UHGV virus genome: UHGV-0283667
DNA length: 14,283 nt
Strand: one strand, 5' to 3'
DNA from: a virus
A model generated the notes under the pieces. The model was not told the DNA's origin, did not search any database, and was given only the letters and a program-made list of their open reading frames with translations. Position 1 is the stretch's first letter. The number at the start of each line of letters is the position of its first letter. This document shows positions 1-14,283 of this stretch, piece after piece. The position numbers and the translations under genes are program-made.

Positions 1-77
1 CCTGCGCCCACGTTATAGACGAACGAGTAAAGAGCGCCGCGCGTTGTTTCCGGTATATCGACTTTGATGTACGGGTT
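1..77 (-). pseudogene. Phage endolysin (T4-lysozyme-like, GH24) fragment; reading frame runs leftward out of the window and is cut off near position 77
   Basis: Reverse-complement translation of 1-77 gives ...[26 protein letters not shown], matching the conserved core of enterobacterial prophage lysozymes. Similarity stops near 77, where the + strand Rz frame begins. Confidence 0.55.
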
Positions 78-385
78 ATTACCGTGATAACGCAATCGCC
101 TACAAAGAGCAGCGCGATAACAAGGCCAGTGAACTGGAGAAGGCGAACGCTACCATCGCTGACATGCGGAAGCGTCAACGTGATGTAGCAGAACTCGACG
201 CAAGATACACAAAGGAGCTTGCTGATGCTAACGCGACTATCGAAAGTCTCCGTGCTGATGTTTCTGCTGGGCGTAAGCGCCTGCAAGTCGCCGCCACCTG
301 TGCAAAGTCAACGACCGGTCTCACAGAAAAGCCGCCCCGAGATGGTCGCCACCATATACGGCAGTTCTCAGGCTCAACTTTCTGA
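68..385 (+). pseudogene. Rz-like inner-membrane spanin (i-spanin) fragment lacking the N-terminal transmembrane segment and the native C-terminus
   Basis: Frame opens after the TGA at 65-67. Translation [80 protein letters not shown] is lambda Rz-like (about residues 25-103). After position 316 the frame reads a non-Rz tail ([22 protein letters not shown]) to the stop at 383-385. Confidence 0.7.
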
Positions 386-398
386 AAGGCTCGGGTGA
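225..398 (+). CDS. Rz1-like outer-membrane lipoprotein spanin (o-spanin), 57 aa, in the +1 frame of Rz
   Basis: Not in the ORF track (under 60 aa). RBS AGGAG at 213-217, ATG at 225. Translation [57 protein letters not shown] has a lipoprotein signal with lipobox Cys followed by a Pro-rich stretch, as in lambda Rz1. The C-terminal part lies in the inverted segment and may not be native. Confidence 0.5.
257..316. repeat. Left arm of a 60-bp inverted repeat (58/60 identical to the reverse complement of 641-700)
   Basis: Read directly: 257-316 equals the reverse complement of 641-700 except at 266/691 and 307/650. The match does not extend at either end. Confidence 0.9.
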
Positions 399-437
399 TG
401 TAATAGGCGCGTGAGATGCGCTGTGAAATTCAGATGT

Positions 438-464
438 AAAAAAAGCCCCGCATCGCGAGGCTCA
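438..464 (-). terminator. Rho-independent terminator on the minus strand, just downstream of the minus-strand Rz fragment
   Basis: Minus-strand sequence GAGCCTCGC-GAT-GCGGGGC followed by seven U: 7-bp GC-rich stem with one G-U pair. The stem sequence is nearly identical to the + strand terminator at 1201-1226. Confidence 0.6.
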
Positions 465-493
465 TTAAATGGACTTTGTGATTTGCAAAAAAA

Positions 494-775
494 TTATTTC
501 AGGCATTGCGTCCTGATGTATTCCTGCAGGTAGTTAACCTGCGCGGTTATCTTGTCGATTCCACTTCGGAGACGGTAATAATTGAGTTCAGCATCTGCTG
601 TAAGTCCTGGGCTTTCTCCATCGCCCATGCCGCTGGCTCTGGTCGTTGATTTTGCACAGGTGGCGGCGACTTGCAGGCGCTTACGCCCAGAAGAAACATC
701 GTTTGAGGTTAAGCATCTGGCGCGCGGTAAGTGGTTGCGTTGAAATAAGAGCCAGTCCATTACAAATTTCATCAA
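494..775 (-). pseudogene. Rz (i-spanin) C-terminal portion encoded on the minus strand, fused to an unrelated 25-aa N-terminal leader
   Basis: From the arm at 700 downward the translation [66 protein letters not shown] matches the lambda Rz C-terminus, including the ...YI..QC end. The first 25 residues are not Rz-like, and the start is TTG/ATG with no clear RBS. Confidence 0.65.
641..700. repeat. Right arm of the 60-bp inverted repeat
   Basis: Reverse complement of 257-316 with two mismatches. Confidence 0.9.
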
Positions 776-870
776 GCGTTATTGGTAAGGGTGATAATTA
801 TGAGATACCTCTTCACTAAGAGTAATCTTAAGGGTAATGTGTAACCTCACTTTTTAATACGGAGGTTGTA

Positions 871-1095
871 ATGTTAGAGAATTATTTCCCTTCAGGAATA
901 GGTGCTCAGCCTGTAACTCAAGCTCAAAAACAGAGGGTTATAGCTGTTCAAGCTGCCCTTGAATTAGTTAAGGCCTCACTTTCTTCTGCAGGTGGTCAGG
1001 CTACAAGTGCAAAATTTGAACAGGAATTAAAAGCAGCTATTGGCTTAATTGAACCATTAGCCGATGCCATTCAGAAAGCAATCAGCAAAGAATAA
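871..1095 (+). CDS. Hypothetical small protein (74 aa) in an AT-rich moron-like insert between the lysis and packaging modules
   Basis: RBS GGAGG at 861-865, ATG at 871. The 780-1200 region is visibly AT-rich compared with flanking phage genes. Protein is helical-looking and hydrophilic with no signal peptide or TM segment. Followed by the terminator at 1201-1226. Confidence 0.6.
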   Translation: MLENYFPSGIGAQPVTQAQKQRVIAVQAALELVKASLSSAGGQATSAKFEQELKAAIGLIEPLADAIQKAISKE

Positions 1096-1200
1096 ATAAA
1101 CCACCTGCATTTTGTTTTATTTCCCAACTAACGGGTGTAATAATCTTAATGTTTCCCGTGGATAGATAAGACAATAAGTATTCACCTTCAAGATATAAAC

Positions 1201-1226
1201 GAGCCTCGCTAATGCGAGGCTTTTTT
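1201..1226 (+). terminator. Rho-independent terminator
   Basis: GAGCCTCGC-TAAT-GCGAGGC followed by TTTTTT: perfect 7-bp stem, 4-nt loop, T-run. Confidence 0.8.
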
Positions 1227-1261
1227 ACGCATTGTAAGCGTGCACCAAAGAGGGGATATAA

Positions 1262-1612
1262 ATGCCACCACGAACCCCAAAAGCCTGCCGTTTTCGCGGT
1301 TGCCGCAATACCACGACTGATCCGTCAGGCTATTGCGAAAGCCACAAAAGCGAGGGCTGGAAGCAATACAAGCCAGGACAATCCCGTCATCAGCGCGGTT
1401 ATGGTTCGAAGTGGGACAGTATCCGCGCGGGTGTCCTGAAGCGTGACAAAGGCCTGTGTCAGTTATGTCTGCGTGCTGGTGTGGTGCGTGAGGCGAAAAC
1501 CGTTGACCACATCATCCCTAAAGCGCATGGCGGCACTGATGCCGACTGTAATCTGCAGAGTCTGTGCTGGCCGTGTCATAAGGCGAAGACGGCCCGTGAA
1601 CGACTTAAGTGA
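1262..1612 (+). CDS. HNH endonuclease (phage packaging-associated)
   Basis: RBS GAGGGG about 6 nt upstream of ATG 1262. Cys-rich N-terminus and HNH motif ...VDHIIPKAHGG...NLQSLCWPCHKAKT. Position immediately upstream of terminase small subunit is typical of HK97-like phages. Confidence 0.9.
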   Translation: MPPRTPKACRFRGCRNTTTDPSGYCESHKSEGWKQYKPGQSRHQRGYGSKWDSIRAGVLKRDKGLCQLCLRAGVVREAKTVDHIIPKAHGGTDADCNLQSLCWPCHKAKTARERLK

Positions 1613-2232: not shown

Positions 2233-3110
2233 GCCGGAAATCTTACCCCAACGTAAATGCAGCAAATCAGTATGCCCGGGATGTCGTGCGCGGAAAGATT
2301 GTTGCCTGCCAGTTTGTGATTCAGGCCTGCCAGCGCCATCTTGATGACCTGATGGCGGAAAAAAGTAAGTCGTTTCGTTACCGCTTCGACAAGGACCTGG
2401 CTGAACGGGCCGCCAAATTTATTCAGCTGTTGCCGCACACCAAGGGTGAGTGGGCATTTAAACGGATGCCCATCACGCTGGAGCCGTGGCAGCTATTTGT
2501 GATCTGCTGTGCGTTTGGCTGGGTCAATAAAGGCACCCGGTTGCGCCGCTTCCGGGAGGTGTATACCGAAATTCCCCGTAAGAACGGCAAATCGGCAATC
2601 TCTGCCGGTGTTGCCCTGTATTGTTTTGCCTGTGATAACGAGTTCGGCGCGGAAGTGTATTCCGGTGCCACGACGGAGAAACAGGCATGGGAAGTCTTTC
2701 GTCCGGCACGACTGATGTGTAAACGCACACCCATGCTGACGGAAGCGTTCGGGATTGAGGTTAACGCCTCAAACATGAACCGTCCGGAGGATGGTGCGCG
2801 GTTTGAACCGCTGATCGGTAACCCCGGTGATGGTTCATCACCCCACTGTGCCGTGGTGGATGAATATCACGAGCACGCCACAGATGCGCTTTACACCACG
2901 ATGCTTACCGGGATGGGGGCGCGACGCCAGCCACTGACCTCGAACTGCTCAAGAGTCAGTGATTTATCCTCGCAGCTCTGCCAGCTCACCAGGTTGAAAT
3001 ACGCCGAACGCGCCGACACCCAGATATTGAGGTGTTTTGTTTTAAAGACGTTTGCCAGACGGGCGTTATTTTTCGCACGTTGCTGCTGGCTTAACAAAAA
3101 CTCGCGATAA
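2229..3110 (+). CDS. Terminase large subunit, N-terminal ATPase part; family similarity ends near 2938 and the rest of the ORF is out-of-sense read-through
   Basis: Walker A-like IPRKNGKS and Walker B-like AVVDEYHEH, then ...[11 protein letters not shown]. From about 2939 the + frame reads junk ([13 protein letters not shown]...) to the stop at 3108-3110. Confidence 0.8.
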
Positions 3111-3200
3111 ACCGACACACCGATATTCGGGTTAGCTTTTTCAAGTACCTGCGGGTCGGTCCAGTCGTCGCCTTCGTCAACGGTATAGATGATCCTGGCC
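2939..3200 (-). other. Internal terminase large subunit segment in inverted orientation (sense on the minus strand)
   Basis: Minus-strand translation [87 protein letters not shown] carries the terminase signature DDW.DP...KANPN...FKTKHLN.W. It lies exactly between the N- and C-terminal + strand parts, which share one reading frame. Confidence 0.75.
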
Positions 3201-3749: not shown

Positions 3750-3829
3750 CTGAGGTAATTATGATCATGCTGATTCTCGCGCCTCTGGTAGGCGTGCTGG
3801 GGGCGCTTTTGCTGGCGTATGGTGTTCAG

Positions 3830-3937
3830 GCTGCCGTTCAGGTGATACAGATTGCAGGGCAACATCCCGACCGACTCTGCCAGCACCCTGACGCAGGAAA
3901 AAACCGCCGTCAGTCGCATGGCCCGCTGGCTGCTGAT
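3830..3937 (-). other. Portal protein N-terminal conserved segment in inverted orientation
   Basis: Minus-strand translation ISSQRAMRLTAVFSCVRVLAESVGMLPCNLYHLNGS matches the N-terminal conserved helix of HK97-family portals, but lies on the strand opposite the portal body. Confidence 0.65.
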
Positions 3938-3953
3938 CTGCTTTCCGGTATAG

Positions 3954-4814
3954 GTGTCATATGACACTGGCTGTGTGGTACCGAAGCTTAACAGTAGCTG
4001 GGAGCCGGTCTATCAGGTCACATTCCCGGACGGCTCCACGGATGTGCTGACCCAGGAGGATATCTGGCATGTGCGCACGCTGACGCTGGACGGTCTGGTG
4101 GGACTGAATCCCATCGCCTATGCCCGCGAGGCAATATCGCTGGCAGCAGCGACTGAAGAGCACGGTGCCAGACTGTTCAGCAATGGCGCGGTGACGTCCG
4201 GTGTGTTGCGTACAGAACAGACGCTGTCGGATCAGGCTTATGAGCGCCTGAAGAAAGATTTTGAGGAGCGTCACACCGGGCTTGGCAATGCTCACCGCCC
4301 GATGATCCTTGAGATGGGGCTGGACTGGAAGTCGATGGCGCTGAACGCCGAGGACAGCCAGTTCCTGGAAACCCGCAAGTTTCAGCTTGAAGAAATCTGT
4401 CGTCTGTTCCGTGTGCCCTTGCACATGGTGCAGAACACCGATCGCGCCACCTTCAACAATATCGAAGAGCTGGGGCTGGGATTTATCAACTATTCACTGG
4501 TGCCGTATCTGACCCGTATTGAGCAGCGGATCAACACCGGACTGGTACGAAAAAGTAAGCAGGGCGTTTATTACGCCAAATTTAACGCCGGGGCGTTACT
4601 GCGCGGGGATATGAAGTCCCGTTTTGAAGCCTACGCCACCGGGATCAACTGGGGAATTTACTCTCCCAATGACTGCCGCGACCTGGAAGATATGAATCCG
4701 CGTCCCGGTGGTGATGTCTATCTCACACCGATGAACATGACCACGAAACCCTCCGATGGTAGTAAAGCCGGTAAGCAGAAGGATAACGCCAATGCAGACG
4801 AAACAACGTCTTGA
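3954..4814 (+). CDS. Portal protein (HK97 family), body and C-terminus; N-terminal region missing from this strand
   Basis: ...EPVYQVTFPDGSTDVL...LVGLNPIAYAREAISLAAATEEHGARLFSNGAVTSGVL...FLETRKFQLEEICRLFRVPLHMVQ...GGDVYLTPMNM is portal-like. The ORF opens at GTG 3954 inside a 14-bp palindrome, with a frame-0 stop at 3951-3953 immediately upstream. Confidence 0.85.
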   Translation: MSYDTGCVVPKLNSSWEPVYQVTFPDGSTDVLTQEDIWHVRTLTLDGLVGLNPIAYAREAISLAAATEEHGARLFSNGAVTSGVLRTEQTLSDQAYERLKKDFEERHTGLGNAHRPMILEMGLDWKSMALNAEDSQFLETRKFQLEEICRLFRVPLHMVQNTDRATFNNIEELGLGFINYSLVPYLTRIEQRINTGLVRKSKQGVYYAKFNAGALLRGDMKSRFEAYATGINWGIYSPNDCRDLEDMNPRPGGDVYLTPMNMTTKPSDGSKAGKQKDNANADETTS

Positions 4815-9502: not shown

Positions 9503-9804
9503 CACTTCCGGGTATTCGTTTTCTGATGATGCTGGCGCTCAGGATGGGGCGCACATTGTCAGAGTTACGCCGGGAAATGTCTGCATCGGAAATCATGATG
9601 TGGGCAGAATTTGACAGGATCAGCCCGCTGGGTGACGAGCGGGCTGATATCCGGGCTGCCCAGATAGTTTCTGCAGTTTACGGGGCGCAGGGTGTCAAAG
9701 TTCCACTGAATGAAGCGATTCTTCAGTGGGAGGTCGTTCCTGCAAATAATATTAAAGATCCGTTCACAGCGTTTGAAAATGCATTATTTGCAGCGACACA
9801 ATGA
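9131..9804 (+). CDS. Tail assembly chaperone frameshift fusion product (gpGT-like) by -1 ribosomal frameshift at 9493-9499
   Basis: The -1 frame is open from 9493 through the stop at 9802-9804. The slippery run sits just before the G stop at 9500-9502. Confidence 0.65.
9491..9499 (+). promoter_or_regulatory. Programmed -1 frameshift slippery site (A AAA AAG)
   Basis: Heptamer A-AAA-AAG at 9493-9499 within the run AAAAAAAAG (9491-9499). Confidence 0.65.
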
Positions 9805-9814
9805 TCTTCTTACT

Positions 9815-9844
9815 TTACTGGATTATGATTCCGATTTTTATTAA
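9815..9844 (+). promoter_or_regulatory. Candidate sigma-70 promoter for the downstream moron
   Basis: TTACTG (9815-9820), 18-bp spacer, TATTAA (9839-9844), in an AT-rich intergenic stretch. Confidence 0.3.
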
Positions 9845-9862
9845 GTAAATAAGGAGATATTG

Positions 9863-10204
9863 ATGGAAGTTATTCTTATTGCGCTAGTCCTGGGGTTAAT
9901 TCCGGCTATTATCGCGCAAAGTAAAGGGCGTTCATTTTGGGGATGGTGGATATACGGAGCCTTACTCTTTATCGTTGCCTTGGTTCATTCACTTGTAATC
10001 CAAAAAGATGAAAAAACGCATGAGCAACAAATGGTGAGCAATGGCATGAAAAAATGCCCTTACTGTGCGGAGTTGATCAAAGAAGAAGCCATTAAGTGTA
10101 AGCATTGCGGTAGTGATTTAACACATAACCCTGATAGTACCGTTTCGCAAAAAACGGATGATGAATATCTTGAAGAAGCAAGGCGTAAGGCTGGGCTTCT
10201 TTAA
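9863..10204 (+). CDS. Moron: small membrane protein with two predicted TM helices and a C-terminal zinc-ribbon (CPYC...CKHC)
   Basis: RBS AAGGAG at 9851-9856, ATG at 9863. Two hydrophobic stretches, then CPYC-x13-CKHC. AT-rich codon usage unlike flanking tail genes. Own terminator downstream. Confidence 0.7.
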   Translation: MEVILIALVLGLIPAIIAQSKGRSFWGWWIYGALLFIVALVHSLVIQKDEKTHEQQMVSNGMKKCPYCAELIKEEAIKCKHCGSDLTHNPDSTVSQKTDDEYLEEARRKAGLL

Positions 10205-10209
10205 AAGCA

Positions 10210-10234
10210 AAAACCGCTTCGGCGGTTTTTTTTT
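10210..10234 (+). terminator. Rho-independent terminator (A-tract upstream, so possibly bidirectional)
   Basis: AAAACCGC-TTCG-GCGGTTTT followed by a T9 run. Confidence 0.75.
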
Positions 10235-10249
10235 GCCTGGAGAACGAGA

Positions 10250-13200
10250 ATGGCGTCACTACGCGAACTGATTATAAAAATCTCGGCAAATTCGCAGTCA
10301 TTCCAGTCAGAAATTGCGCGAGCTTCACGTATGGGACAGGAGTACTACCGTACCATGCAGAACGGAGGTCGACAGTCTGCAGCTGCATCCCGTGATATGC
10401 GGCGAGCACTGGCAGAAGTGACCGAGCAGATAAATACGGCGAAGTCTTCGGCAATGAATATGGCTGGCGCATTTGCCGGTGCTTTTGCCACTGGACATCT
10501 TATATCTCTTGCGGATGAATGGAGCTCAGTAAATGCCCGTTTGAAGCAGGCCACGCAGTCCAGCGATGATTTCCAGGCATCACAGCGCGAATTAATGGCG
10601 ATCAGCCAGAGAACGGGTACTGCTTTTGCTGATAACGCCAGTCTTTTTGCACGTTCGGCTTCTTCCATGCGGGAATATGGTTACAGGTCTGAGGAAGTAC
10701 TGAAAGTTACCGAGGCCATTTCTACAGGATTGAAATTGTCCGGAGCCAGTTCTGCGGAAGCCAGCTCGGTGATCACTCAGTTCAGCCAGGCACTGGCGCA
10801 AGGGGTTCTGCGCGGTGAAGAGTTTAATTCAGTAAATGAAAGCGGTGATCGTGTTATTCGTGCTCTGGCTGCAGGAATGGGGGTTGCCCGTAAAGATCTG
10901 AAGGCAATGGCGGATGATGGAAAGCTGACCGCCGATAAGGTTGTTCCTGCACTGATTAGCCAGCTTGGTACGCTGCGGGATGAATATGCAGCCATGCCTG
11001 ATACCGTATCATCCTCTGCAACCAAAGTTGAAAACGCCTTTATGGCCTGGGTTGGTGGTGCGAATGATGCCAGCGGTGCAACGAAAACGCTTACCGGAAT
11101 AATGAATGGTGTTGCGAATAATATTGATACGGTTGCCACGGCGGCGGGAGCTCTGGTTGCAATTGGTGTAGCCCGATATTTTGGCAATATGGCGTCTTCT
11201 GCGGGCTCTGCAACTGCCGGGTTAATCACTGTTGCCAGAAACGAAGTGGCTCTTGCTGAGGCACAGCTCAGAGGGACACAGATAGCAACAGCCAGAGCGC
11301 GGGCGGCATTGTATCGTGCGCAGCAGGCGGTTGTGGCTGCCCGTGGTACAGAAAAACAGGCTGCAGCAGAAGCGAAACTGGCAACCGCACAGGCTTCACT
11401 TACCCGTAATATTGCTGCCAGAACAGCGGCACAGGCAACGCTGAATAACGTTACGTCAGTTAGTAGTCGGTTGTTAAGCGGTGCTCTGGGGCTGGTTGGT
11501 GGTGTGCCTGGACTTGTCATGCTGGGGGCGGCGGCCTGGTACACAATGTATCAGAACCAGGAGCAGGCCAGAGAATCAGCGCGTCAGTATGCCGCAACAA
11601 TCGACGAAATTCGCCAGAAAACGTCTGCAATGTCACTTCCTGAAGCGGCAGATAATGAAGAAAAGACGCGGCAGGCTCTGGAGGAGCAGAACAGGTTAAT
11701 TGACGAGCAGAAAAGTAAGATTAAATCCTTACAGGAAAAAATTGCTGGCTATCAGTATGTCCTGGCAAACCCGGGCTGGACAACCGATAACGGTTTTATG
11801 ATTAACCACATGACGTCGGTGAAAACTGTCACAGAAGGGCTTGCAGAAGCAACAAGTCAGCTGGCTGTTGAGCAGTCCCGACTTTCCGGAATGCAGGAAA
11901 AAGCCCAGTCAATCCAGGATGTGCTTGCCGGGCTGGAAGAACGACGAGTGGTGCTGATCCGCCAACAGGCAGCGGAACAAAACAAAGCATATCAGTCATT
12001 ACTGATCATGAATGGCCAACATACCGAGTTTAATCGTCTTCTTGGGCTTGGTAATGAATTACTTCAGCAGCGACAGGGGCTGGTGAATGTACCGTTACGG
12101 CTGCCACAGGCTGCTCTGGATGATAAACAGCAGAACGCGCTGAATAACACTGAGCGAGAGCTGACCTTATCCCGTATGAAGGGGGAAGCGCGTGAGCGTA
12201 CTCGTCTGGGCTATGTAGCGGATGATCTCGGTTTTGTGGGGGATGCCTATCAGACGGCAAGGCAAACTTATATCAACAACGCGCTGGAAGCATGGCGTAA
12301 CAACCAGGCGAATAAGCCAAAGGTACGTGGTGGAAAATCGGAAGCAGAAAAAACGGAAGATGCTTATAACAGACTGATTAAACAACAAAAAGAACAAATA
12401 GCACTGGCAGGACAGAATACTGAACTGGCTAAGATGAAATACCAGGTCAGCCAGGGCGAATTATCAACCTTATCAGAAGCGCAGAAACAAACCCTTTTAC
12501 AGAATGCAGCACTCATCGACCAGAAAAAAATTCGTGAGCAAATTGCTGCTTATGAAAGCAGCCTGGCGGACAGTAACGCCAGTGTCAGGGCATCAAATGA
12601 GGCTCAGTTGTTAGGGTATGGAGACGGAACACGAATACGTGAGCGGCTTCAGGAAATGTGGAACATCCGACAGGAGTTTGAGCAGAAAAATAATGAGTTG
12701 CTGAGACAGTACCAGACCGGAGAAATCGAAGAAGCCCTGTGGAAACAGGAAAAAACGCTGAATGAAAAATATCTGGAGGAGCGTCTCAACGATCAGCAGG
12801 ATTATTATGCAAAGGCCGATGCTTTACGCAGTAACTGGAATGCTGGGCTCAAAGAGGGGCTGACGAACTGGGCAGACAGTGCCACTGATTATGCTTCACA
12901 AGCGGCAGATGCGGTCGTTTCCACTATGGATGGTCTGGTTTCAAATATTTCCGAGGCACTGGCCGGAAACGTTGTGGACTGGAGAAACTGGGGGAGTTCG
13001 ATCCTTCAGGAAGTTTCAAAAATCCTGATGAACGCGGCCATTGTTAACGGGCTGAAATCACTCTCCGGGACAATGTCGGGAGCGGGGGGATGGATTGGTA
13101 GTGTTGGCGACTGGCTTTCCGGTGCAGTAGCGAACGCAAAAGGCGGTGTTTACACATCGGCAAATCTGAGTGCTTACAGTAACACCATTGTGGATACGCC

Positions 13201-13826: not shown

Positions 13827-14218
13827 TGCAGGATATACAGCAGGAAACACTGAATGAGTGTACAAAATCGGAGCAATCCGCGCTGGTCGTGCTCTGGGAA
13901 GTCGATCTGACAGAGGTCGGCGGAGAGCGTTATTTTTTCTGTAATGAGCAGAACGAAAAAGGTGAGTCGGTCACCTGGCAGGGGCGACAGTATCAGGCGT
14001 ACCCTATTCAGGGAAGCGGCTTTGAGATGAACGGCAAAGGAGCCAGTGCAAGACCAACGCTGAAAGTCTCTAACCTGCACGGCATGGTCACCGGGATGGC
14101 GGAAGACCTGCAGAGTCTGGTCGGCGGAAAGGTAGTCAGGCGTAAGGTTTGCCAAAGTTGCCGACGTTATTGCGAAACTTACAGCCACTCAGGCATTTGC
14201 TGCATTTATCCTTCGTGA
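13826..14218 (+). CDS. Minor tail protein L (lambda gpL-like), N-terminal 108 aa; family similarity ends at 14149
   Basis: MQDIQQETLNECTKSEQSALVVLWEVDLTEVGGERYFFCNEQNEKGE.VTWQGRQYQ.YPIQGSGFE.NGKG...VVRRKV is nearly identical in pattern to lambda L. From 14150 the frame reads non-L sequence. Start overlaps the M stop. Confidence 0.85.
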   Translation: MQDIQQETLNECTKSEQSALVVLWEVDLTEVGGERYFFCNEQNEKGESVTWQGRQYQAYPIQGSGFEMNGKGASARPTLKVSNLHGMVTGMAEDLQSLVGGKVVRRKVCQSCRRYCETYSHSGICCIYPS

Positions 14219-14283
14219 TATCGGACGTCGGCTGGTCATATTCATCCGCGACAGCCGGACCGCTATAACCGCACTCATCACCG
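14150..14283 (-). other. Minor tail protein L C-terminal region in inverted orientation; continues beyond the window end
   Basis: Minus-strand translation GDECGYSGPAVADEYDQPTSDITKDKCSKCLSGCKFRNNVGNFG matches the Cys-rich C-terminal region of lambda L. Confidence 0.75.

What the first reader, a model, noticed from the sequence alone, without database searches (positions are those of the whole stretch)
780..1240. AT-rich moron with its own RBS and terminator between the lysis and packaging modules
The 780-1200 region is conspicuously AT-rich relative to flanking phage genes. It encodes a 74-aa hydrophilic helical protein with a canonical RBS and ends in a strong terminator. This is the classic moron signature, so the gene is probably expressed from the prophage and may provide a host-benefit or anti-phage function. 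I do not recognise the protein family.
Basis: partly seen in the sequence, partly recalled or inferred. Interest (0 to 1): 0.5.

Follow-up and report, generated by a model that had tools for sequence, protein, structure and literature searches.

The report
Small-protein moron in HK97-like prophage
An AT-rich, self-contained cargo gene between the lysis and DNA-packaging genes of an E. coli prophage encodes a 74-residue two-helix protein of an uncharacterised enterobacterial family; it is an ordinary "moron" by architecture, but many of its relatives carry textbook heat-shock (sigma-32) promoters, which hints at a stress role.

Summary
Bases 780-1240 are 38% G+C against 51.5% for the window, and they include its lowest-GC stretch. 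ORF 871-1095 has a GGAGG ribosome-binding site. A strong terminator lies at 1196-1227.

The ORF is a real gene. It matches phrog_5901 in full, belongs to a family of at least 133 50%-identity clusters in Enterobacterales, and has dN/dS 0.15.

The moron reading is supported:
- The Rz-HNH slot of near-identical HK97-like prophages holds unrelated cargo or a 48%-identical allele.
- This allele occurs in 38 of 5,426 E. coli genomes.
- The block that travels with the gene (792-1106) starts 20 nt upstream of a conserved -35/-10 pair, TTCACT-N17-TAATGT. A consensus scan misses this pair.
- 95 of 131 family loci have a terminator just after the gene.

New points:
- The Shine-Dalgarno sequence sits in a conserved hairpin.
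- The gene's own terminator is decayed, so the 1196-1227 terminator belongs to a separate segment.
- 42 of 131 relatives carry a canonical sigma-32 promoter; this copy does not.
- Several genera hold chromosomal copies outside prophages.

No fold or function could be assigned. Expression from the prophage is untested. I class it as a new member of a known kind, of moderate interest.

The parts
701..1257 (.). AT-rich cargo island (39.7% G+C) in the Rz-HNH slot of an HK97-like prophage
   Evidence: composition. The left edge, 700/701, is where identity to 38 E. coli genomes starts. The right edge, 1257/1258, is where homology to L126/L130, which carry a different allele, resumes.
792..1106 (+). 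Core mobile unit: promoter-like element, leader and ORF
   Evidence: This is the only block shared (84.5% nt) with L094/L095/L096, where the flanking genes differ.
812..817 (+). -35-like hexamer TTCACT
   Evidence: The CTT/TT is conserved in 23 diverged type-A upstream regions, with a 17-nt spacer to the -10. It falls below the threshold of the consensus scan.
817..830 (+). Small palindrome TAAGA-gtaa-TCTTA inside the promoter spacer (possible operator, or an RNA hairpin in read-through transcripts)
   Evidence: 76% of cells are paired and 3 of 5 pairs show changes on both sides. Its function was not resolved.
835..840 (+). -10-like hexamer TAATGT
   Evidence: T835, A836 and T840 are invariant in all 23 type-A sequences. 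From my own knowledge, these are the -12T, -11A and -7T positions.
842..868 (+). Leader hairpin that pairs an anti-SD (842-848) with the Shine-Dalgarno region (862-868)
   Evidence: 7 bp, -6.6 kcal/mol. 95% of cells are paired across 23 sequences, 3 pairs have compensatory changes, and slid controls give 31-52%.
861..865 (+). Shine-Dalgarno GGAGG, 5 nt before the ATG
   Evidence: AGGAGG is invariant in alignment A4.
871..1095 (+). 74-aa ORF (identical to WP_000892817.1): soluble helical-hairpin protein, member of phrog_5901
   Evidence: dN/dS is 0.15 against the L094 allele.
1098..1123 (+). Decayed remnant of the family's usual proximal terminator: the 5' arm AAACCACC and the T-run are kept, the 3' arm is lost
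   Evidence: Alignment with L094, L097, L098, L102 and L105, which have AA(A/G)CCGCC-loop-GGCGGTTT+T-run at this place. 95 of 131 family loci have a terminator within 200 nt of the stop codon, mostly 3-40 nt after it.
1107..1257 (+). Separate AT-rich segment that follows the core unit and supplies the working terminator
   Evidence: It is found only with this prophage type: 44 of 5,426 E. coli genomes have a match, 38 of them over at least 80% of the segment. 1096-1232 folds with z = -4.15.
1196..1227 (+). Intrinsic terminator (stem 1201-1209 with 1214-1222, T-run to 1226)
1..316 (+). Upstream flank: 5' part of spanin gene Rz (lysis module)
1262..1612 (+). Downstream flank: HNH endonuclease, first gene of the packaging module (followed by P27-type TerS at 1738-2232)

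Best explanation
This is a genuine moron: a horizontally acquired, self-contained cargo unit in the hypervariable slot between the lysis cassette (Rz) and the packaging module (HNH, TerS, TerL) of an HK97-like E. coli prophage.

Shown:
- It is compositionally foreign.
- It differs between otherwise near-identical prophages.
- It encodes a conserved 74-aa two-helix protein under purifying selection.
- Its family recurs as a unit of promoter-like element, short structured leader, ORF and terminator. This unit occurs behind lysis genes and in front of at least three unrelated terminase systems. It also occurs as a lone gene among housekeeping genes in Serratia, Scandinavium/Citrobacter and Mangrovibacter, and in Kluyvera, where one neighbour, DUF1398, also occurs in prophages.

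Inferred:
- In this copy, transcription starts from a weak sigma-70-type promoter (TTCACT-N17-TAATGT, 812-840).
- The mRNA starts at or just before a hairpin that sequesters the Shine-Dalgarno sequence, so translation is damped.
- Because the gene's own terminator has decayed, transcripts run on to the terminator at 1196-1227.
- The gene lies co-directionally inside the late operon, so Q-antiterminated late transcripts should also cross it.

Most speculative: a third of the relatives have a canonical sigma-32 promoter at the same place, and the conserved residues are polar or charged (R22, Q27, E31, K34, D65, Q68) plus an invariant N-terminal MLxxY. On that basis the protein is most likely a stress-linked accessory factor. 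It would act alone, by binding a host protein conserved across Enterobacterales, to the benefit of the lysogen. It is unlikely to be a lysis or packaging component.
For: Composition.

Real gene:
- phrog_5901 at E = 8e-29 over the full length.
- 13, then 447, relatives, all 'hypothetical' and all in Enterobacterales.
- 133 50%-identity clusters of 60-80 aa.
- Invariant Y5 and R22.
- dN/dS 0.15.

Variable cargo slot:
- EC488, L126/L130 and HK97 hold different contents in the same slot.
- This allele is in 38 of 5,426 E. coli genomes and the type-B allele in 3 of 5,426.

Unit architecture:
- The shared block 792-1106 begins 20 nt upstream of the -35.
- T, A and T of the -10 are invariant across 23 diverged sequences.
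- The anti-SD helix is 95% paired, with compensatory changes.
- 95 of 131 loci have a terminator, against 0.07 expected per 200 nt.

Independence from lysis and packaging:
- At least three Pfam-distinct terminase systems lie downstream.
- Chromosomal copies sit next to GFA, pentapeptide, RhaM, carbonic anhydrase, GNAT, MBL, PnuC and porin genes.

Stress link in relatives:
- 42 of 131 loci carry CTTGAAA-N12-15-CCCCATNT, with the -10 end 38-48 nt from the ATG in all but one.
- The background rate is 0.017 per 150 nt.
- The consensus is taken from PMC6687850.
Against: - No promoter reaches the consensus scan's threshold in 300-1800. TTCACT/TAATGT matches only 7 of 12 positions.
- The conserved T-A-T could instead reflect an RNA-level constraint in a longer leader.
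- This copy lacks the sigma-32 motif.
- Folding at 20-50 C shows no thermometer-like opening of the SD hairpin, so the stress link is by family association only.
- The gene is co-directional with the late operon and follows Rz or endolysin within 3 ORFs in 49 of 80 viral loci. That also fits a late, lytic-cycle role.
- No fold, Pfam, NCBIfam, PADLOC or PDB match gives a function.
- There are no expression data.
Confidence: 0.65

Rival explanations
1. It is a late-operon gene with a lytic-cycle role, such as a lysis-timing or packaging accessory. It would be expressed only by Q-antiterminated read-through, not from the repressed prophage.
For: - It is on the same strand as, and lies between, Rz and HNH/TerS.
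- 49 of 80 viral loci have Rz or endolysin within 3 ORFs upstream, and 64 of 80 have a lysis gene within 4 kb.
- Serratia phage OS31 keeps it in the same place.
- The consensus scan finds no promoter.
Against: - It is absent from, or replaced in, prophages with 97-99% identical lysis and packaging genes.
- It is found in only 1 of 50,697 deposited phage records.
- It is paired with at least three unrelated terminase systems.
- It is kept as a lone gene with its own terminator among housekeeping genes in several genera.
- The -10/-35 pair, or a sigma-32 promoter, is conserved directly upstream.
Confidence: 0.15
2. It is a single-gene anti-phage (superinfection exclusion or defence) or anti-defence factor, the commonest role of cargo in such prophage hotspots.
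For: - The slot is a cargo hotspot whose other occupants are KilA-N and Rha-like genes and unassigned proteins with hydrophobic stretches.
- Alleles at only 48% identity sit in one backbone, which suggests cassette swapping or diversification.
- HK97 gp15, the founding moron, is an exclusion protein (PMC3594210).
Against: - PADLOC gives no hit.
- The protein is soluble, with no membrane segment.
- Chromosomal copies are conserved in synteny across Serratia species, and many copies have sigma-32 promoters. That looks like a physiological rather than an anti-phage role.
- dN/dS of 0.15 shows no diversifying selection between close alleles.
Confidence: 0.12
3. The ORF is incidental. On this reading the AT-rich stretch is a non-coding regulatory or sRNA region, or a decayed remnant.
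For: - The 3' part, 1096-1232, folds unusually well (z = -4.15).
- It has weak sub-threshold Rfam hits (Leu_leader 27 bits against a gathering score of 50).
- The window carries several rearrangements.
Against: - There is a full-length HMM match and hundreds of same-length homologues with invariant residues.
- dN/dS is 0.15, and Leu2 is encoded by different synonymous codons.
- The RBS is invariant.
- The Rfam hits rest on the terminator hairpin.
Confidence: 0.02

Closest known systems
HK97 gene 15 moron (Juhala/Hendrix concept; Cumby, Davidson & Maxwell 2012, PMC3594210)
   Same: An independent add-on unit inside a late operon of an HK97-like phage. Its G+C differs from its neighbours, it has its own expression signals, it encodes a small protein, and it is variable among relatives.
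   Different: gp15 sits between the tail chaperone and tape-measure genes and is an inner-membrane exclusion protein. This unit sits between Rz and HNH and encodes a soluble two-helix protein with no detectable homology to gp15. The gp15 slot of this same window holds another low-GC gene, the zinc-ribbon ORF at 9860-10204.
phrog_5901 (PHROGs v4, unknown function)
   Same: Full-length match at E = 8e-29, 1-74 against 1-70 of 70 profile positions. This is the catalogued family it belongs to.
   Different: PHROGs records no function. The chromosomal non-prophage copies, the promoter types and the leader hairpins described here are not part of that entry.
Sigma-32 (RpoH) heat-shock promoters of E. 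coli: -35 TTGAAA and -10 CCCCATWT/CCCCATNT (PMC6687850, citing Nonaka 2006)
   Same: 42 of 131 family members carry CTTGAAA-N12-15-CCCCATNT at a fixed distance from the ATG. They include the allele occupying this same slot in L126 and L130. The window's element has a similar layout: a 7-mer (811-817), a 14-17 nt gap, then the -10 region.
   Different: The window's copy has GGGTAATGT where CCCCATNT should be, so the C-run is lost. It reads as a sigma-70-type TAATGT. Sigma-32 dependence was not tested for any member.
Lambda bor, a moron next to the lysis genes (my own knowledge, not tested here)
   Same: Cargo placed directly after Rz at the lysis/packaging junction of a lambdoid prophage.
   Different: bor is a lipoprotein gene on the opposite strand and is unrelated in sequence.
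SD-sequestering leaders and RNA thermometers (ROSE, fourU)
   Same: A conserved hairpin pairs the Shine-Dalgarno sequence with an upstream anti-SD.
   Different: No Rfam family matches. Predicted SD accessibility hardly changes between 20 and 50 C. The stem pairs CCUC with GAGG rather than a U-run or UYGCU.

Membership tests
Moron (definition as in PMC3594210) | [quoted passage not shown] | tested here: met
   38.2% against 51.5%. It contains the lowest-GC 461-nt window of the whole 14.3 kb. GC3 is 22.7% against 55.6% (HNH) and 64.8% (TerS).
Moron (definition as in PMC3594210) | An addition that is present in some phages and absent or replaced in close relatives | tested here: met
   EC488 (97-99% identical backbone) has DUF6979 plus a 67-aa hydrophobic protein in the slot. 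L126/L130 have a 48%-identical allele. HK97 has KilA-N plus a 77-aa ORF. This allele is in 38 of 5,426 genomes. No relative with an empty slot was found.
Moron (definition as in PMC3594210) | Own promoter | tested here: inconclusive
   The consensus scan gives 0 hits. However, TTCACT-N17-TAATGT has invariant -12T, -11A and -7T in 23 diverged copies, and the mobile block starts just upstream of it. No transcript data exist.
Moron (definition as in PMC3594210) | Own terminator | tested here: met
   There is a strong terminator at 1196-1227. 95 of 131 family loci have one within 200 nt. Caveat: the proximal terminator of this copy is decayed, and the working one lies in an adjoining segment.
Moron (definition as in PMC3594210) | Expressed from the repressed prophage | not testable with these tools
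   This needs RNA-seq, 5'-end mapping or a reporter in a lysogen.
phrog_5901 | Significant full-length match to the family HMM | tested here: met
   E = 8.1e-29, 100.6 bits, residues 1-74 on profile positions 1-70 of 70.
Sigma-32 regulon promoter | CTTGAAA - 12-15 nt - CCCCATNT upstream of the gene | tested here: not met
   The window has no match within 3 mismatches. CTTCACT has 3 mismatches and the -10 region lacks the C-run (my own count on the sequence). The feature is met in 42 of 131 relatives.
RNA thermometer | SD sequestered in a hairpin that opens between about 30 and 45 C | tested here: inconclusive
   Sequestration is supported. Predicted P(unpaired) of the SD rises only from 0.09 to 0.12-0.17 between 20 and 45 C. 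No Rfam hit. Thermodynamic models are a weak test.
Known anti-phage defence systems (PADLOC-DB 2.0) | Match to a defence-protein HMM | tested here: not met
   No family at E <= 10.
Lysis or packaging accessory protein | Obligate association with one lysis or terminase system | tested here: not met
   It is found with Terminase_4+HNH, Terminase_2+Terminase_6 and DUF1441+GpA systems, and alone in chromosomes.

The most novel reading that the evidence does not exclude
The family is a phage-disseminated, single-gene extension of the enterobacterial heat-shock regulon.
- Members with CTTGAAA-N13/14-CCCCATTT would be truly transcribed by E-sigma-32. These include the alternative allele in this very slot, and domesticated copies such as the one between pnuC and a porin gene in Serratia fonticola.
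- The promoter would toggle between sigma-32 and sigma-70 forms within one family.
- The window's copy would be a sigma-70-converted derivative whose output is gated by an SD-sequestering hairpin.
- The protein would then be a new small heat-shock or proteostasis modulator carried by temperate phages.
Probability: 0.4. Interest if true: 0.6.

Novelty: new member of a known kind. Interest (0 to 1): 0.4.

Why it matters
Morons are how temperate phages hand new traits to their hosts, yet most of their small proteins have no known role. This one belongs to a compact family of roughly 450 clusters at 90% identity, confined to Enterobacterales. The family moves as a promoter-leader-gene-terminator cassette and has been fixed in the chromosomes of several genera. 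In a third of cases it sits behind a textbook heat-shock promoter.

If that regulation is real, the family is a tractable example of phage cargo plugged into a core host stress regulon, and of promoter-class switching within one gene family. The tests are simple: reporter fusions, in vitro transcription with E-sigma-32, and pull-downs. For this particular window the result is more modest: a correctly recognised, ordinary moron with an unknown product.

Tried and rejected
Function by sequence:
- Pfam and NCBIfam (E up to 1 and 10) and PADLOC (E up to 10) gave no hit.
- The PDB profile search gave a best E of 0.1, to Get1 coiled coil, which I rejected as noise.

Function by fold:
- Foldseek against BFVD gave a best E of 0.68.
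- The afdb50 library was not available.

RNA families: only sub-threshold hits that rest on the terminator, such as Leu_leader at 27 bits against a gathering score of 50.

Promoters:
- The consensus promoter scan gave 0 hits.
- The window has no sigma-32 motif.
- By eye I also considered sigma-E, sigma-28, Fur-box and LexA-box readings of the upstream conserved elements (GATAAT at 793-798, TCTGTAA). I dropped them because the spacing or the half-sites do not fit. These were not computed tests.

RNA thermometer: temperature-dependent folding shows no opening.

Other dead ends:
- The search for related loci with the 84-sequence alignment failed because no conserved stretch was found. I repeated it with A1.
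- Literature searches for the accession and for sigma-32 or prophage small proteins found nothing relevant.
- Association with HNH/P27 terminase as a packaging cofactor is rejected, because most relatives sit next to other terminases.

Full report
**1. What is in the sequence**

The window is the late region of an HK97-like E. coli prophage. Its gene order is Rz, the region in question, HNH endonuclease (1262-1612), P27-family small terminase (1738-2232), large terminase, ymfR, portal, protease, capsid, and then tail genes up to the tape measure.

Bases 701-2937 are 100% identical to E. coli 1517k and to many other genomes. The finding therefore lies in natural, well-attested sequence.

The stated features all hold.
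- G+C of 780-1240 is 38.2% against 51.5% overall.
- The lowest of all 461-nt windows starts at 739.
- GC3 of the ORF is 22.7%, against 55.6% for HNH and 64.8% for TerS.
- ORF 871-1095 encodes 74 aa behind GGAGG (861-865).
- A hairpin of -18.2 kcal/mol plus a T-run lies at 1196-1227, with z = -4.5.
- In the intact relative the AT-rich island runs from the Rz stop codon to just before HNH.

**2. The ORF is a real gene of an uncharacterised family**

It matches phrog_5901 (unknown function) over its full length at E = 8e-29. It has no Pfam, NCBIfam or PADLOC match.

Word-indexed searches found 13 and then 447 relatives. All are named 'hypothetical' and all come from Enterobacterales. An exhaustive profile search found 133 clusters at 50% identity, nearly all 60-80 aa.

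Alignments show this pattern:
- an invariant Y5 and R22;
- a nearly invariant M1-L2;
- the motifs R(L)xAVQAALEIAKAS and LADAIQxAL;
- a variable Ser/Ala/Gly-rich loop between the two motifs.

Against the 89%-identical allele of L094, dN/dS is 0.15.

**3. It behaves as a moron**

PMC3594210 defines morons as additions with deviant G+C and their own promoter and terminator, expressed from the prophage.

(a) The slot is hypervariable.
- E. coli EC488 shares the packaging and head-tail genes at 97-99% identity. Between Rz and HNH it carries a DUF6979 protein and a 67-aa hydrophobic protein.
- IMG/VR contigs L126 and L130 share HNH, TerS and TerL at about 96% nt identity from window position 1258 on. 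They hold a 48%-identical member of the same family.
- HK97 itself holds a KilA-N gene and a 77-aa ORF.
- The window's allele occurs in 38 of 5,426 complete E. coli genomes, always at 99% identity or more. The L126 allele occurs in 3.
- Among 50,697 phage records, only Serratia phage OS31 has a relative.

(b) The unit that moves is 792-1106. This is the only block shared with L094-L096, at 84.5%, and the flanking genes there differ.

(c) The family travels widely.
- In 80 viral contigs it usually follows Rz or endolysin: 49 have one within 3 ORFs upstream.
- It precedes at least three Pfam-distinct terminase systems: Terminase_4+HNH, Terminase_2+Terminase_6, and DUF1441+GpA.
- In Serratia, Scandinavium/Citrobacter and Mangrovibacter it is a lone gene among housekeeping genes. 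The neighbours assigned by Pfam are GFA, pentapeptide repeat, RhaM, GNAT, MBL-fold and, in S. fonticola, PnuC and a porin.
- In Kluyvera it sits among carbonic anhydrase and DUF1398 genes, and DUF1398 also occurs in prophages.
- These copies look domesticated.

**4. Expression signals**

The simple consensus scan finds no sigma-70 promoter in 300-1800. Comparison is more informative.

I aligned 23 diverged 'type A' upstream regions. The only invariant bases upstream of the Shine-Dalgarno sequence are one T of the -35-like element (window 813) and the T, A and last T of TAATNT (window 835-840, TAATGT). From my own knowledge, these are the -12, -11 and -7 positions of a -10 hexamer. They lie exactly 17 nt after a conserved (C)TTcAcT (window 812-817).

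The mobile block begins 20 nt upstream of that -35. I read this as a weak sigma-70-type promoter. This step is inferred, not shown. A constraint on a longer transcribed leader would give the same conservation.

Directly downstream, 842-848 pairs with 862-868, which covers the Shine-Dalgarno sequence. Across the 23 sequences 95% of cells are paired, and three pairs change on both sides. One example is AACCTCC/GGAGGTT becoming AATCTCC/GGAGATT. Slid controls give 31-52%. The structure was derived from these same sequences, which inflates the contrast somewhat. Translation is therefore probably damped by SD sequestration.

A 5-bp palindrome in the promoter spacer (817-830) also covaries, with 76% of cells paired. 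Its meaning is open.

Terminators follow 95 of 131 non-redundant family loci, mostly 3-40 nt after the stop codon. The background rate is 0.07 per 200 nt.

In the window that proximal terminator is decayed. AAACCACC and the T-run remain at 1098-1123, but the 3' arm is gone. Homology with L094 ends at 1106. That segment is known only from this prophage type.

**5. The heat-shock lead**

In 42 of 131 non-redundant loci the place of the type-A promoter is taken by CTTGAAA-N12-15-CCCCATNT, with at most 3 mismatches and often none. In all but one of them (L137, whose start codon is doubtful) the -10 end lies 38-48 nt from the ATG. The background is 0.017 hits per 150 nt in the same loci, which predicts about 2.

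This is the E. coli sigma-32 consensus: TTGAAA and CCCCATWT/CCCCATNT (PMC6687850).

The loci with this motif include L126 and L130, which have the same prophage backbone and the same slot. They also include the chromosomal Serratia fonticola copies. These 'type B' leaders carry a hairpin at a fixed place with many different stem sequences, such as CCCACC/GGUGGG, CCACAG/CUGUGG and CCUGCC/GGUAGG.

The loci are related, so the count is not a probability. But the motif persists where the surrounding sequence has diverged.

The window's own copy does not have the motif: GGGTAATGT stands where CCCCATNT would be. Folding from 20 to 50 C gives no thermometer-like opening of its SD hairpin. A heat-shock link for this copy therefore rests on family association only.

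**6. Mechanism and rivals**

Best explanation (confidence 0.65): an independently transcribed cargo gene whose small soluble product acts alone on a conserved host protein, probably in a stress context.

Rivals:
- A lytic-cycle accessory protein expressed only by late read-through (0.15). This is weakened by the chromosomal copies, the many terminase partners and the gene's absence from near-identical phages.
- An anti-phage or anti-defence factor (0.12). There is no PADLOC hit and no membrane segment.
- An incidental ORF (0.02). This is contradicted by the conservation.

**7. Novelty**

The architecture is the classic moron and the family is already catalogued as a PHROG of unknown function, so this is a new member of a known kind.

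As far as my literature searches went, four family-level observations are undescribed:
- the sigma-32 promoters;
- the switch of promoter class within the family;
- the leader hairpins;
- the domesticated copies.

**8. Oddities of the window**

Relative to E. coli 1517k the window carries four locally inverted segments. Three have the adjoining reference sequence deleted (105-208 nt on each flank seen): 2938-3195, 3825-3966 and 14151-14283. The fourth, 317-700, instead carries sequence absent from 1517k. These break Rz, the large terminase and the ymfR/portal region. I found no microhomology at the junctions. They do not touch 701-2937. I could not decide whether they are real or an assembly artefact.

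Noticed in passing
window 317-700, 2938-3195, 3825-3966, 14151-14283: Relative to E. coli 1517k (otherwise 99.97-100% identical), four segments are inverted in place. For the last three, 105-208 nt of reference sequence are missing on the flanks seen. These changes break Rz (60-nt inverted repeat 257-316/641-700), the large terminase and the ymfR/portal region. No junction microhomology was seen. No complete E. coli genome has these junctions. They may be an assembly artefact or real decay of the prophage.
   Followed up: partly
window 9600-10300 (ORF 9860-10204, +): A second low-GC island (38-42%) holds a 114-aa zinc-ribbon protein (Pfam Zn_ribbon_3). It lies between the tail assembly chaperone genes and the tape-measure gene, which is exactly the slot of the founding moron, HK97 gene 15.
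   Followed up: partly
L126:3900-4000, L108, L104, L024-L030 and 30+ other loci: A canonical sigma-32 promoter (CTTGAAA-N13/14-CCCCAT(T/G)T) lies directly upstream of family members. Among them are the alternative allele in the same prophage slot and chromosomal Serratia fonticola copies between pnuC and a porin gene.
   Followed up: partly
type-B leaders, e.g. L045, L113, L116, L124, L143 (about 15-40 nt upstream of the ATG): A hairpin lies at a fixed position in the predicted 5' leader, with many different but complementary stem sequences. It does not cover the Shine-Dalgarno sequence, unlike the type-A hairpin of the window.
   Followed up: partly
window 1107-1257: A separate AT-rich segment between the decayed terminator and HNH folds unusually well (1096-1232, z = -4.15). 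It contains TGTAATAAT (1136-1144), which resembles an extended -10, about 60 nt before the terminator hairpin. This could be a small RNA or just a 3' UTR. It is known only from this prophage type.
   Followed up: no
window 757-798 and the equivalent place in many type-A and type-B loci: A conserved 'CATTACA - G+C-rich hairpin - (C/T)GATAAT' element lies immediately upstream of the -35 in both promoter types. The hairpin is degenerate in the window. It may be a module boundary, a T-less terminator-like structure or a UP-like element.
   Followed up: no
L004-L019 (Serratia), L055-L081 (Scandinavium/Citrobacter), L061-L083 (Kluyvera), L048-L053 (Mangrovibacter): Family members sit as lone genes, each with its own terminator, among housekeeping genes and in conserved synteny across species. 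These are domesticated, non-prophage copies.
   Followed up: partly
L164:1854-2549 (E. coli EC488) and L166:1673-2637 (HK97): The same Rz-HNH slot carries unrelated cargo in close relatives: DUF6979 plus a 67-aa hydrophobic protein with its own terminator in EC488, and KilA-N plus a 77-aa ORF in HK97. Other loci hold Rha-like genes and unassigned proteins with hydrophobic stretches. The slot is a cargo hotspot.
   Followed up: partly
window 591-743 (L165:1797-1949): RefSeq annotates a 50-aa 'hypothetical protein' (WP_032146275.1) that overlaps the Rz end and runs into the island. A similar 50-aa ORF exists in L111 and L112. Whether it is a real gene was not examined, and in the window its 5' part is removed by the inversion.
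   Followed up: no
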